From assembly GCF_054482595.1 (NCBI RefSeq), contig NZ_CM137008.1: a stretch of 64,000 bases of DNA; one strand, 5' to 3'. Shown piece after piece: positions 15,001 to 18,000 of the stretch (position 1 is the stretch's first letter; every line of letters starts with the position of its first letter). Position numbers: made by a program.

Positions 15001-18000
15001 CTCCAGCAATACATCCAAATAAAACCAAGATTGCATAAACAGCAACGCATTAAATGCCATTCTGGTTACTGTTCATCGCATATAAAAATTCAAAAATTTT
15101 GCATAGCATTGGCAACCACATATCTGAGTATGTAGTTCAGAGGGTAATAAAATAGCAAGTTATTACTTAAAACTTATTTTAAGTTAACACTCTTAACTTT
15201 ATCATTACATTCCTCCCAGTCTCTAATACCTGCGCATTATATGTATCCAGGAACTCAAATCAACTCAAAATATAAACAAAAGCAAGAGGAATACATTTAA
15301 TATACAGCCGATAAAAGCGGTAACTCTTATTAGGTATCAAAATATAAGAATCGTCTTATTAATAAATATATAACACTATAGGACTGAATCCATTCAGCTA
15401 ATACAAAATAAAATCGTTAATTAATAAAATATAAAATCATGAAGTGATACAAGAGGAATTGCAGGATATGACATGACAATCATATATAATATATGCATAA
15501 TTTTTTACAGCGAGTCAATGATTCCCGCGCCATATGCAGACATGGCGCGGTTTTATGCAAAAACAATCACGCGTCCGGGAACATCACGCTATGGCCCGGC
15601 GCTTCACGATGGAGATGAATAAAGTTAAGGTGCCGCTCGTACTGGTCAAGAATATCGGTGATCACCTGCTCTTTGCTGTAGTCCATCAGGTCGTTGCCCT
15701 GGCTGCCTTCTAACAGGAAGGTTTCCAGCCGGTAGTAGGTCGATTTACCGCTACGTGCGCGGTAGGTAAAGCCCGGCACCGAATATTGCTGCGGCCAAAT
15801 CTGATAGACAAAGTTTTGTTCTTCGCCCATATGCACCAACAAATCCAGATGCCCCAACTGTTGTCCCTCTTCCGGCGGCAGGCTTTTTAGCTCCACGTAC
15901 GCGCCGCGCAACCGCAGCTCCTGCGCCACTTCTTCCATTGCCGGGTAACAGACCGTCTCCATCATCTGTTTAGTGTAACGCGTGCCCGGATAATTCATCA
16001 GGCGCGAGAGACGTTTTTTCCAGCTCAGGCGATCCTGAAGCCCCAGCGGTCGCGGCGCGGTATCGCGGTTGGCACTTTCACGGCGGTAATCTTCTACCTT
16101 CAGAGATTTATACAACCCCGCCATCACGAAGAAGATCACAAAGCTGAACGGCAGCCCCATAATCACCGTGGTGTTTTGCAGCGCGGATATCCCGTTGGTC
16201 ATCAGCATGCCGAGCGTCAGCAGGCCAATCGCCACCGACCAGAAGACGCGCAGCCAGCCGGGGGCGTCGCTGTTGATATCTTTAAGCTGCGAGGTGAAAT
16301 TCCCCAGCACCAGCGCACCGGAGTCCGCCGAGGTCACATAAAACAGCAGGCCAGTAATGGTGGCGACGGAGGCGCTAAAGGTAAACGCCGGATACTGCGC
16401 CAGCAGGCTGTAGAAGCCGCGCTCCGGATGGACCATCGCTTCCTCGGCAAATGCCGCGCCGCCGTGGATGATTTCATACAGCGCGCTATTGCCGAATACC
16501 GAGAGCCATAACAGCGTGAAGGTAAACGGAATAATCAACGTGCCCAGCACGAACTGGCGAATGGTACGCCCACGCGAGATACGCGCCAGGAACAAGCCGA
16601 CAAACGGCGACCATGCCACCCACCATGCCCAGAAGAAGAGCGTCCAGTTATTCATCCACTCAACTGGACGGTCGAAGGCAAAACTGTTGAGCGTCATGCC
16701 CATAAAGCGATTCACATAGTCGCCAACATTCAGCACCAGCGCATTAAGCAGGAACGAGGTGTCGCCCATAAACAATACGAACAGGATCAATCCCAGCGCC
16801 AGCGCAACGTTAAGTTCCGATAACACACGAATCCCCTTATCGACACCGGAGGTGACAGAGATCGTGGCGATTATCACCGACAAGGCGATCAGTGCCGCTT
16901 TTGCCGCCATCGAATCGGGAATATCAAACAGTACGCTCAAGCCATAGTTAAGCTGCACCACACCGATACCGAGCGTAGTGGCAATACCGAAGATGGTGCC
17001 GATCACCGCTGCAATATCCACTGAGTGCCCTATCGGCCCGTTAATCCGTTTACCGAAGATCGGGTACAGCGCCGAGCGGATGGTGAGCGGCAAATTATAA
17101 CGATAGCTAAAGTATCCGAGCGCCATGCCCATCAGCGCATACATCGACCAGCCGGTTAAGCCGTAGTGAAACAGCGTCCAGACCATCGCCTGACGCGCGG
17201 CCTCAATCGTCTGTCCCGCGCCTTCCGGCGGCTGCATATACTGCGTTACCGGTTCGGCTACGGAAAAGAACATCAGGTCGATACCGATCCCGGCAGCAAA
17301 CAGCATCGCCGCCCAACTCAGCAGGCTGAATTCCGGTTTGGATTGTTCTGGCCCGAGCTTCACCGAACCAAAACGCGAACAAGCGATACAGACCACAAAG
17401 ACAATATAGAGCGTTGCCGCCAGCAGATAGTACCAACCGAAGGTTTTAGACACCCAGTCCAGCGTGCGGCCAATCCACAGGGCCGAGAAGTCGCGAAACA
17501 GGATCGTTGTCAGGGAAAACAACAAAATCAGTCCGGCGGAGGTGTAAAACACCACCGGATTGATTTTGTCCTTTTCCCTGCTGTGTGAAAGGTCTGTCAT
17601 CCAGTATCCCCACTGTTATTGTTACCATTTAAAATCAAATTCGTAACAATTAAGACACATTTTATATTGAACGTCCAATCAATAACCGCTTTAATAGATA
17701 AACAACGCTGATGAATGGAGTGGCGAAAATGCCCAAATTGGGGATGCAGTCGATCCGGCGCAGACAACTGATCGACGCCACACTGGAAGCAATAAATGAA
17801 GTGGGCATGCACGATGCAACGATCGCGCAGATCGCCCGCCGTGCAGGCGTTTCTACGGGGATCATCAGCCACTATTTCAGGGACAAAAATGGTCTGCTGG
17901 AAGCAACCATGCGCGATATCACCAGTCAGCTGCGTGACGCGGTTTTGAATCGATTACATGCACTTCCGCAGGGCAGTGCAGAGCAGCGATTACAGGCGAT

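What the first reader, a model, noticed from the sequence alone, without database searches (positions are those of the whole stretch)
17601..17728. betT/betI divergent control region with a dyad candidate BetI operator
The 128-bp spacer between the divergent betT and betI starts contains tattgaacgtccaatcaata (17665-17684) with inverted ATTGA/TCAAT half-sites, a typical TetR-family operator layout positioned to repress both promoters.
Basis: partly seen in the sequence, partly recalled or inferred. Interest (0 to 1): 0.25.

Follow-up and report, generated by a model that had tools for sequence, protein, structure and literature searches.

The report
Known BetI operator between betT and betI

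Summary
The window is the E. coli bet locus. It holds betT (15567-17600, minus strand), a 128-bp spacer (17601-17728) and betI (from 17729). TATTGA-N8-TCAATA sits exactly at 17665-17684. The spacer matches K-12 except at two positions outside the dyad.

A dyad of this quality is not significant on its own: 44% of shuffled spacers contain one. The significance comes from conservation.

- All 77 Enterobacterales betT/betI spacers examined keep ATTGAACGTNCAAT (17666-17679) without a mismatch, although the spacer length varies widely.
- Eight of 12 distant betI loci carry ATTGA-N4-TCAAT.

The two inner half-sites coincide with the -35 hexamers of both promoters (TTGAAC on plus, TTGGAC on minus). 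A published four-repeat ArcA site (17618-17660) lies one base from the conserved block.

Genomic SELEX finds BetI at a single site in this spacer, and 22 nt of this sequence form the operator of the synthetic BetI-repressed promoter.

Interest is low.

The parts
15567..17600 (-). betT, the choline BCCT transporter, transcribed divergently from betI
   Evidence: ORF. NCBIfam NF007399 BetT scores 1314.8 bits against a cut-off of 695. RefSeq annotation under the match.
17601..17728 (.). 128-bp betT-betI intergenic control region
   Evidence: Identical to K-12 except at 17626 (C, against T in K-12) and 17705 (A, against C in K-12).
17618..17660 (-). ArcA-P binding site: four direct repeats at 11-bp spacing, responsible for anaerobic repression. 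It contains the second inverted repeat of the spacer (17618-17630 / 17638-17650).
   Evidence: Park et al. 2013, Table S4, gives ATGTGTCTTAATTGTTACGAATTTGATTTTAAATAGTAACAAT at K-12 328627-328669, which is -18 to +25 relative to the betT TSS. This is the reverse complement of window 17618-17660 with one SNP.
17642..17642 (-). betT transcription start site
   Evidence: Derived from the ArcA site location of -18 to +25 relative to the mapped betT TSS in Park 2013 Tables S4 and S6. The mapping to window coordinates is my arithmetic.
17649..17654 (-). PbetT -10 hexamer CTTAAT, preceded by TG (an extended -10, TGTCTTAAT)
   Evidence: Read from the sequence. It ends 7 nt upstream of the TSS at 17642. 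This is an inference. The strict consensus scan reported no promoter.
17661..17685 (.). Extended conserved operator block: the BetI box plus A/T-rich symmetric flanks
   Evidence: Per-column information content over 63 distinct orthologous sequences. Relatives carry perfect 26-28 bp palindromes, TTTTTGATTGAAC|GTTCAATCAAAAA.
17666..17679 (.). BetI box core ATTGAAC|GTCCAAT: a 14-bp palindrome matching in 6 of 7 pairs, axis 17672|17673
   Evidence: Zero mismatches to ATTGAACGTNCAAT in 77 of 77 Enterobacterales loci. 13 of 14 columns are invariant. It is the best symmetry axis. ATTGA-N4-TCAAT is found in 8 of 12 distant betI loci, each with a chance of 0.004 or less. It matches the footprinted R. 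pomeroyi BetI1 box ATTGACG*CGTCAAT and the published betI-box consensus. It is unique in the window at up to 2 mismatches.
17665..17684 (.).
   Evidence: The right arm is not conserved: 17683 is A in 56 of 63 relatives. The axis 17674|17675 scores lower.
17667..17672 (+). PbetI -35 hexamer TTGAAC, which is the left half of the BetI box
   Evidence: It lies 17 bp upstream of the conserved TTTAAT. Inference.
17673..17678 (-). PbetT -35 hexamer TTGGAC, which is the right half of the BetI box
   Evidence: It occupies -31 to -36 relative to the betT TSS at 17642, with an 18-bp spacer to CTTAAT. Inference.
17690..17695 (+). PbetI -10 hexamer TTTAAT. The TSS is inferred at about 17702-17703.
   Evidence: Columns 17690-17695 are nearly invariant across relatives and keep a fixed 17-bp distance from TTGAAC. 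The TSS is inferred: I recall that the two TSSs are 61 bp apart, and Table S6 puts the near edge of the ArcA site at 42 relative to the betIBA TSS.
17729..18316 (+). betI, the TetR-family choline-responsive repressor (195 aa), with a GGAG Shine-Dalgarno sequence at 17717-17720
   Evidence: NCBIfam NF001978 and TIGR03384 equivalogs. Pfam TetR_N and TetR_C_6. The start matches the K-12 annotation.

Best explanation
The site is the known operator of BetI in the divergent, overlapping betT and betIBA promoters of E. coli.

**Binding (shown in the literature).** BetI, a TetR-family protein, binds within this spacer and nowhere else in the genome.

**Recognition element (inferred here from comparative data).** The element recognised is the 14-bp near-palindrome ATTGAAC|GTCCAAT at 17666-17679. 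Weaker symmetric A/T-rich arms extend it to about 17661-17685. I infer that a single dimer binds it, which the 21-nt footprint I recall would fit.

**Repression (inferred from geometry).** The two half-sites are also the -35 hexamers of PbetI (TTGAAC, plus strand) and PbetT (TTGGAC, minus strand). The dyad axis lies about 30.5 bp from each transcription start. A single bound dimer would therefore deny sigma-70 both -35 elements and repress both transcription units together.

**Induction (literature).** Choline induces expression, but BetI is not released from DNA in vitro. De-repression therefore involves a change in the bound complex rather than simple dissociation. That step is unresolved.

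**Oxygen control.** ArcA-P binds four direct repeats at 17618-17660, one base from the conserved block. These cover the betT -10 hexamer and start site and add anaerobic repression.

The extra TCAAT at 17679-17683 is the remnant of an outer half-site of a longer nested palindrome, ATTGATTGAAC|GTTCAATCAAT, seen intact in some other bacteria.
For: **Locus identity.**. The control region equals that of K-12 apart from two SNPs outside the operator, so K-12 experiments apply directly.

**Experimental evidence from the literature.**
[quoted passage not shown] Gel shifts confirm specific binding with and without choline (PMC5934670).
- BetI binds DNA with and without ligand (PMC2628434).
- The synthetic BetI-gate promoter carries AATTGATTGGACGTTCAATATAATG, the reverse complement of window 17662-17683 (PMC7058928).

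**Comparative evidence within Enterobacterales.**
- In 77 species with 63-95% BetI identity, every locus with enough upstream DNA to test (76 of 77) has a divergent betT.
- The distance from the box to the betT start varies from 65 to 318 bp. The distance to the betI start varies from 47 to 176 bp.
- All 77 keep ATTGAACGTNCAAT with zero mismatches, and 13 of 14 core columns are invariant.

**Symmetry.**
- The axis 17672|17673 is the clear maximum, with 6.38 of 7, 7.73 of 10 and 10.54 of 13 complementary pairs.
- Relatives carry perfect 14-, 26- and 28-bp palindromes on that axis.

**Distant lineages.**
- ATTGA-N4-TCAAT with no mismatch lies upstream of betI in Proteus, Burkholderia, two Acinetobacter, two Pseudoalteromonas, Vibrio and Paracoccus.
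- That is 8 of 12 loci, each with a chance of 0.004 or less.
- The distance to the gene start varies from 11 to 128 bp.

**Promoter geometry.**
- The betT TSS at 17642 follows from Park 2013.
- The conserved -10 TTTAAT lies 17 bp from TTGAAC.

**ArcA.** The site and the direct repression of betT and betIBA are from Park 2013.
Against: - The primary footprint paper (Rokenes et al. 1996) and the promoter paper (Lamark et al. 1996) could not be read. The 21-nt footprint over both -35 boxes and the 61-bp TSS separation rest on my memory of their abstracts.
- The consensus promoter scan found no sigma-70 promoter in the spacer. Both promoters are weak matches, so my hexamer assignments are inferences.
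- Part of the invariance of the core could come from its role as two -35 hexamers rather than from BetI contact.
- No BetI-DNA structure exists, so one-dimer stoichiometry and the contacts are not shown.
- Four of the 12 distant loci lack the box: Azospirillum, Roseateles, Rhizobium and a S. meliloti pSymA paralogue.
- In E. coli itself the N4 and N8 axes tie at 7 of 10 pairs.
Confidence: 0.9

Rival explanations
1. A BetI dimer recognises TATTGA (17665-17670) and TCAATA (17679-17684), 8 bp apart, on the axis 17674|17675.
For: - It is a perfect 6+6 inverted repeat in E. coli and is unique in the window.
- In E. coli alone it ties with the N4 axis at 7 of 10 complementary pairs.
- The synthetic BetI promoter retains both registers.
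- N8 pairs of ATTGA/TCAAT also occur in Proteus, Burkholderia, Acinetobacter ACNIH2 and Paracoccus.
Against: - T17683 is A in 56 of 63 distinct relatives, and 17665 varies (T 51, A 7, G 5) while its partner 17684 stays A. No co-variation is seen.
- Its axis scores 3.90 of 7 and 7.03 of 13, against 6.38 of 7 and 10.54 of 13 for N4.
- Every distant locus with an N8 pair also has the N4 core. The N8 pairs there are by-products of a nested palindrome and fall on either side of the core.
- Four distant loci have N4 without N8, and none has N8 without N4.
- Half-site centres 13 bp apart would put the two helix-turn-helix motifs on different faces of the DNA. That is unlike one-dimer TetR-family operators (established knowledge, inference).
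Confidence: 0.05
2. The operator is a longer nested palindrome of 22-26 bp, ATTGATTGAAC|GTTCAATCAAT-like, bound by two BetI dimers as QacR binds its operator. The outer right TCAAT of E. coli would then be a functional second contact.
For: - Conservation extends over 25 bp, 17661-17685.
- Acinetobacter ACNIH2 (TTATTGATTGAACGTTCAATCAATAA) and Paracoccus (TCATTGATTGACGAGTCAATCAATGA) carry both inner and outer half-sites.
- Brenneria and Prodigiosinella carry perfect 26-28 bp palindromes.
- R. pomeroyi BetI1 protects 29 bp.
Against: - The E. coli outer left half-site is degenerate (TTATA in place of ATTGA).
- In most Enterobacterales the outer arms are plain A/T tracts, TTTTT and AAAAA.
- I recall that Rokenes et al. 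saw only one stable complex and a 21-nt footprint. This was not verified here.
- The outer-arm conservation on the right may reflect the spacer of PbetI.
Confidence: 0.12
3. The conserved block is conserved only because it holds two back-to-back -35 hexamers and promoter spacers. The dyad symmetry is a by-product of divergent promoters, and BetI binds elsewhere or recognises something else.
For: - The half-sites coincide with TTGAAC and TTGGAC, which resemble -35 elements.
- The -10 elements are also conserved at a fixed spacing.
- A dyad of this size is common by chance in this spacer.
Against: - The invariance covers bases outside the hexamers (A17666, T17679) and is far stricter than -35 function requires.
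- The same ATTGA-N4-TCAAT box occurs 11-128 bp from the betI start in distant bacteria, including loci whose upstream neighbour is a same-strand gene rather than a divergent one.
- In the synthetic promoter the sequence is placed between a separate -35 and -10. I know from the genetic-circuit literature that this promoter is BetI-repressible, but I did not verify that here.
- The SELEX peak and the gel shift map to this spacer.
- An orthologue's footprint covers the same motif.
Confidence: 0.02

Closest known systems
E. coli K-12 BetI operator in the betT/betIBA divergent promoters (Lamark et al. 1996; Rokenes et al. 1996; Shimada et al. 2018)
   Same: It is the same locus. The operator, both -35 and both -10 regions are identical base for base, and the spacer differs from MG1655 at only 2 of 128 positions, both outside the operator. 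The flanking genes are the same. BetI binds a single site in this spacer.
   Different: Nothing of substance. The strain is not K-12: it has an autotransporter gene next to betT and one SNP in the ArcA site.
The betI box consensus ATTGA-N4-TCAAT of other Proteobacteria, for example the footprinted R. pomeroyi BetI1 box ATTGACG*CGTCAAT
   Same: The half-sites, the 4-bp central spacing and the overlap with a -35 box are the same.
   Different: E. coli has one mismatch in the right half (CCAAT instead of TCAAT) and an additional outer TCAAT on the right only. In E. coli the box serves two divergent promoters at once.
TetR/tetO, the divergent tetR-tetA control region
   Same: The repressor is a TetR-family helix-turn-helix protein. 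A palindromic operator lies inside overlapping divergent promoters of the regulator and a transporter gene, and the regulator controls its own synthesis.
   Different: TetR has two tandem operators and is released by its inducer. BetI has one operator and stays on the DNA with choline. The sequence motif is unrelated.
R. pomeroyi BetI2, with two overlapping palindromes sharing a flank
   Same: Overlapping alternative dyad registers lie within one divergent bet control region.
   Different: There the two registers were shown to bind BetI2 with choline-dependent preference, and the motif does not match the betI box. In E. coli the second register is not conserved and has no evidence of use.
ArcA-P multi-direct-repeat sites (Park et al. 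2013)
   Same: The 43-bp element at 17618-17660 is the published four-repeat betT site.
   Different: One SNP relative to K-12 at 17626, close to the fourth repeat.

Membership tests
BetI operator (betI box) | A palindrome matching ATTGA-N4-TCAAT | tested here: met
   ATTGAACGTCCAAT at 17666-17679 matches in 6 of 7 pairs. It fits the consensus seen in 77 Enterobacterales loci and 8 distant loci and the published box.
BetI operator (betI box) | Lies in the promoter region of bet genes, next to a gene for a BetI orthologue | tested here: met
   It lies 49 bp upstream of betI and 65 bp upstream of betT. BetI scores above the cut-offs of the NF001978 and TIGR03384 equivalogs.
BetI operator (betI box) | Conserved at orthologous loci while the surrounding spacer diverges | tested here: met
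   The core is intact in 77 of 77 loci. The spacer lengths on the two sides vary from 65 to 318 bp and from 47 to 176 bp.
BetI operator (betI box) | Direct, specific binding of BetI protein to this sequence | not testable with these tools
   Literature only. A single SELEX peak and a gel shift map to the betI-betT spacer.
BetI operator (betI box) | Choline-dependent de-repression of the linked genes | not testable with these tools
   Literature only.
Canonical TetR-type operator (one dimer, inducer-released) | The regulator carries the TetR_N helix-turn-helix domain | tested here: met
   Pfam PF00440 with E = 7.2e-15, plus PF13977 TetR_C_6.
Canonical TetR-type operator (one dimer, inducer-released) | A short palindrome with half-site centres about one helical turn apart | tested here: met
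The centres of ATTGA and CCAAT are 9 bp apart in the N4 register.
Canonical TetR-type operator (one dimer, inducer-released) | The operator overlaps the core promoter elements of the divergent genes | tested here: inconclusive
   The half-sites coincide with the inferred -35 hexamers. The betT TSS comes from Park 2013. The betI TSS is inferred. The consensus scan found no promoter.
Canonical TetR-type operator (one dimer, inducer-released) | The inducer releases the repressor from the DNA | not testable with these tools
   The literature says the opposite for BetI: it remains bound with choline. BetI therefore works like a TetR-type repressor in where it binds but not in how it is induced.
ArcA-P direct-repeat site | Two or more ArcA direct-repeat elements at 11-bp phasing under a ChIP peak | tested here: met
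   Window 17618-17660 is the reverse complement of the published four-repeat site with one SNP. The ChIP peak at betT/betI is also reported.

The most novel reading that the evidence does not exclude
E. coli and a few relatives (for example the Cedecea loci L042 and L048) carry a second register, ATTGA-N8-TCAAT, offset by 2 bp from the conserved BetI box. Choline-bound BetI stays on the DNA. In principle it could re-seat on this alternative register, or on the outer right half-site, and so uncover one or both -35 hexamers. That would be analogous to the choline-tuned choice between two overlapping palindromes reported for R. pomeroyi BetI2. It would explain how a repressor that never leaves its operator is nevertheless induced.

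Arguments against:
- The second register is absent from most relatives.
- The 4-bp change in half-site spacing would require an implausible rotation of the helix-turn-helix motifs.
- I recall that choline did not change the footprint.
Probability: 0.04. Interest if true: 0.45.

Novelty: already known. Interest (0 to 1): 0.1.

Why it matters
It matters little as a discovery. The BetI operator of E. coli was mapped in 1996, confirmed by genomic SELEX in 2018, and is in routine use as a part in synthetic gene circuits.

The modest value added here is comparative evidence, from 77 Enterobacterales and 8 distant loci, on two points:
- The recognised dyad is ATTGA-N4-YCAAT, centred midway between the two transcription starts.
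- The eye-catching perfect N8 dyad of E. coli is a lineage-specific coincidence of inner and outer half-sites.

This is useful for motif models and for operator engineering. The one genuinely open question at this site is how choline induces without releasing BetI from DNA, and sequence analysis does not resolve it.

Tried and rejected
- **Consensus promoter and terminator scan of 17501-17830.** It found nothing. Both bet promoters fall below its rules: TTTAAT lacks A at position 2, and PbetT has a 3-of-6 -35 and a 4-of-6 -10. This is not evidence against promoters.
- **Statistical significance of the dyad alone.** Rejected. 44% of shuffled spacers hold a perfect 6+6 inverted repeat, and 24% hold a 7+7 palindrome with at most one mismatch.
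- **Primary papers.** I tried PMC177852, PMC177851 and PubMed id 8626294, the TetR-family review PMC1197418, and a guessed PMC id for Stanton et al. 2014 (PMC4165527). None is held. A full-text search for secondary quotations of the footprint found nothing.
- **Other papers read.** A Scientific Reports paper on divergent promoters and two Vibrio preprints gave no operator coordinates.
- **PDB sequence search.** There is no BetI-DNA complex. The best hit is an unnamed TetR-family regulator, 3e7q, at E = 1e-15.
- **Rfam scan of 17300-18000.** Only sub-threshold chance hits, all inside the betT coding sequence. There is no RNA element in the spacer.
- **Further BetI boxes in the 64-kb window.** None at up to 2 mismatches, and the 3-mismatch hits are at the chance level. 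This agrees with BetI being a single-target regulator.
- **Second inverted repeat, 17618-17630 / 17638-17650.** I first suspected a second operator or a betT leader hairpin. It is explained by the published ArcA four-repeat site.
- **Four distant betI-like loci.** Azospirillum, Roseateles, Rhizobium and S. meliloti pSymA lack the box. I did not pursue them. Some are probably paralogues with other specificities, like R. pomeroyi BetI2.
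Full report
**1. The observation**

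- The betT start codon (CAT on the plus strand) ends at 17600 and the betI ATG is at 17729. The spacer 17601-17728 is therefore 128 bp.
- tattgaacgtccaatcaata occupies 17665-17684. It is a perfect TATTGA/TCAATA inverted repeat with 8 bp between the arms.
- It is the only zero-mismatch instance of that pattern in the 64-kb window.

The window is E. coli.
- A 540-bp stretch around the spacer (17401-17940) is found in 5180 of 5426 complete genomes, annotated betI and betT.
- NCBIfam equivalog models identify BetI, BetT, BetB and BetA well above their cut-offs.
- BetI carries the Pfam domains TetR_N and TetR_C_6.
- The K-12 spacer is also 128 bp. It differs from the window at only two positions, 17626 and 17705, both outside the dyad. 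Experiments done on K-12 therefore apply to this sequence directly.

**2. Is the dyad more than chance?**

On its own it is not.
- In 5000 dinucleotide-preserving shuffles of the AT-rich spacer, 44% contain some perfect 6+6 inverted repeat with a gap of 0-12.
- 24% contain a 7+7 palindrome with at most one mismatch.

The case must rest on conservation and experiment.

**3. Comparative footprint within Enterobacterales**

A scan of one genome per species with E. coli BetI returned 80 Enterobacterales loci at 63-95% protein identity.
- Seventy-seven of them have usable upstream DNA.
- Every locus with enough upstream DNA to test (76 of 77) encodes a divergent betT. The distance from the box to the betT start ranges from 65 to 318 bp.
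- The distance from the box to the betI start ranges from 47 to 176 bp.
- Despite this turnover, every locus keeps ATTGAACGTNCAAT with zero mismatches.

Over 63 distinct 70-mers the columns behave as follows.
- 17666-17674 and 17676-17679 are invariant.
- 17675 is C in 37, T in 24 and G in 2.
- 17665 varies: T in 51, A in 7 and G in 5.
- The strongly conserved block spans 17661-17685. It is followed by the conserved hexamer TTTAAT/TTAAAT at 17690-17695.

**4. Which dyad?**

I scored every possible symmetry axis over the 63 sequences.

| Axis | Pairs of 7 | Pairs of 10 | Pairs of 13 | E. coli alone, pairs of 10 |
|---|---|---|---|---|
| 17672\|17673 (N4) | 6.38 | 7.73 | 10.54 | 7 |
| 17674\|17675 (reader, N8) | 3.90 | 5.81 | 7.03 | 7 |

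- The axis 17672|17673 is the clear maximum.
- Twenty-seven relatives, including Yersinia, Rahnella and Cedecea, have the perfect 14-bp palindrome ATTGAACGTTCAAT.
- Four relatives, including Brenneria salicis and Prodigiosinella, have perfect 26-28 bp palindromes, TTTTTGATTGAAC|GTTCAATCAAAAA, on the same axis.

**5. Distant lineages**

A BetI tblastn search of the plasmid and chromid collection gave 12 further loci at 37-63% identity.
- Eight carry ATTGA-N4-TCAAT with no mismatch upstream of betI: Proteus, Burkholderia, two Acinetobacter, two Pseudoalteromonas, Vibrio and Paracoccus.
- Each has a chance expectation of 0.004 or less.
- The box ends 11 to 128 bp from the gene start.
- An N8 pair occurs in only four of these loci, and always together with the N4 core.

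The N8 pairs arise because these sites are nested palindromes. Examples are TTATTGATTGAACGTTCAATCAATAA in Acinetobacter ACNIH2 and TCATTGATTGACGAGTCAATCAATGA in Paracoccus. Each has an outer and an inner ATTGA on each side. Proteus and Burkholderia keep the outer copy on the left only. E. coli keeps it on the right only (CCAATCAAT).

Independently, DNase I footprinting of R. pomeroyi BetI1 protects a region containing ATTGACG*CGTCAAT. [quoted passage not shown]

**6. Direct evidence that BetI binds here**

- In genomic SELEX with purified BetI plus choline, only one peak remains in the E. coli genome. It lies inside the overlapping promoter region of the betI-betT spacer.
- Gel shifts show specific binding that persists with KCl and choline (PMC5934670).
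- The output promoter of the synthetic BetI gate contains AATTGATTGGACGTTCAATATAATG (PMC7058928). This is the reverse complement of window 17662-17683, placed between a -35 and a -10. I know from the genetic-circuit literature that this promoter is repressed by BetI. I did not verify that here.
- I recall from the abstract of Rokenes et al. 1996 that BetI shifted a 41-bp fragment carrying the -10 and -35 regions of both promoters, and that it protected 21 nt covering both -35 boxes. I also recall that choline stimulated complex formation without changing the site.
- That paper and its companion are not in the held library, and no secondary quotation was found. These details are recalled, not verified.

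**7. Promoter geometry and mechanism**

Park et al. 2013 list a four-direct-repeat ArcA site at K-12 328627-328669, spanning -18 to +25 relative to the mapped betT start.
- That sequence is the reverse complement of window 17618-17660 with one SNP.
- This places the betT transcription start at window 17642.

PbetT, read from the sequence:
- The -10 is CTTAAT at 17654-17649, preceded by TG.
- The -35, 18 bp further upstream, is TTGGAC at 17678-17673.

PbetI, read from the sequence:
- TTGAAC at 17667-17672 lies 17 bp from the conserved TTTAAT at 17690-17695.
- That predicts a start near 17702-17703. I recall a 61-bp separation between the starts, which fits. Table S6 puts the near edge of the ArcA site at 42 relative to the betIBA start.

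The two -35 hexamers abut one another and are the two halves of the BetI box. The dyad axis lies about 30.5 bp from each start.

The most likely mechanism is that one BetI dimer, sitting on both -35 hexamers, excludes RNA polymerase from both promoters. This step is inferred from geometry.

ArcA-P occupies the neighbouring 43 bp and covers the betT -10 and start. It adds anaerobic repression. Binding and regulation are shown in Park 2013.

Induction is not TetR-like. BetI remains on DNA with choline, and how it is de-repressed is unresolved.

**8. Rivals**

- **The N8 register as the functional dyad.** This is disfavoured by the lack of conservation and co-variation, by the axis scores, and by the 13-bp spacing between half-site centres.
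- **A two-dimer, QacR-like mode on the nested 22-26 bp palindrome.** It cannot be excluded from sequence. E. coli, however, lacks the outer left half-site, and I recall a single complex in the gel shifts.
- **Conservation due only to the -35 hexamers.** This is contradicted by invariance outside the hexamers, by the same box lying at different distances from betI in distant bacteria, and by the SELEX and orthologue footprint data.

**9. Other checks**

- There is no second BetI box in the window at up to 2 mismatches.
- There is no Rfam family in the spacer.
- There is no solved BetI-DNA structure.
- The 60-bp promoter core is identical in 5102 of 5181 E. coli records.

**10. Verdict**

The symmetry axis needs a 2-bp correction, and the proposed choline gel shift would not show release. 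The feature is textbook-level known biology of the E. coli bet regulon, so interest is low.

Noticed in passing
window 17618-17660: A second inverted repeat in the spacer, ATTGTTACCATTT / AATTCGTAACAAT (17618-17630 / 17638-17650). It lies inside the published ArcA-P site with four direct repeats at 11-bp spacing, which covers the betT -10 hexamer and transcription start. Its edge at 17660 is one base from the conserved BetI operator block, which starts at 17661.
   Followed up: yes
window 17626 and 17705: These are the only two differences from K-12 MG1655 in the 128-bp spacer. At 17626 the window has C where K-12 has T, close to the fourth ArcA direct repeat (K-12 AAATAGTAAC, window AAATGGTAAC on the betT strand). 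At 17705 the window has A where K-12 has C, just downstream of the inferred betI start. The effect on ArcA binding is unknown.
   Followed up: partly
window 11011-15060 (minus strand): A 1349-aa ORF lies directly downstream of betT. It has an ESPR signal peptide, an autochaperone domain and an autotransporter beta-domain, so it is a type V autotransporter. K-12 has yahV and pdeL at this position instead, so the window is not from K-12. The gene may be the EhaA-type adhesin of some pathogenic lineages, which I recall but did not check.
   Followed up: partly
L062 (Brenneria salicis), L063 (Prodigiosinella), L088 (Acinetobacter ACNIH2), L090 (Paracoccus pantotrophus), upstream of betI: In these bacteria the BetI box is embedded in much longer perfect or near-perfect palindromes of 22-28 bp with nested ATTGA repeats. 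This raises the possibility of a two-dimer binding mode in some lineages.
   Followed up: partly
L086, L089, L091, L092 (Azospirillum, Roseateles, S. meliloti pSymA, Rhizobium beringeri): These genes are annotated as betI, three of them divergent from choX or another choline ABC transporter gene, yet they have no ATTGA-N4-TCAAT box within 400 bp upstream. They may use a different operator, like BetI2 of R. pomeroyi.
   Followed up: no
window 17711-17728: An in-frame ATG at 17711 would extend BetI by 6 codons to 201 aa. The GGAG at 17717-17720 and the K-12 annotation favour 17729. The sequence CTGATGAATGGAG is conserved across Enterobacteriaceae.
   Followed up: partly
E. coli genome collection: Ten of the matches to the bet control region are on records labelled as plasmids, and about 250 of 5426 complete E. 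coli genomes lack the region altogether.
   Followed up: no
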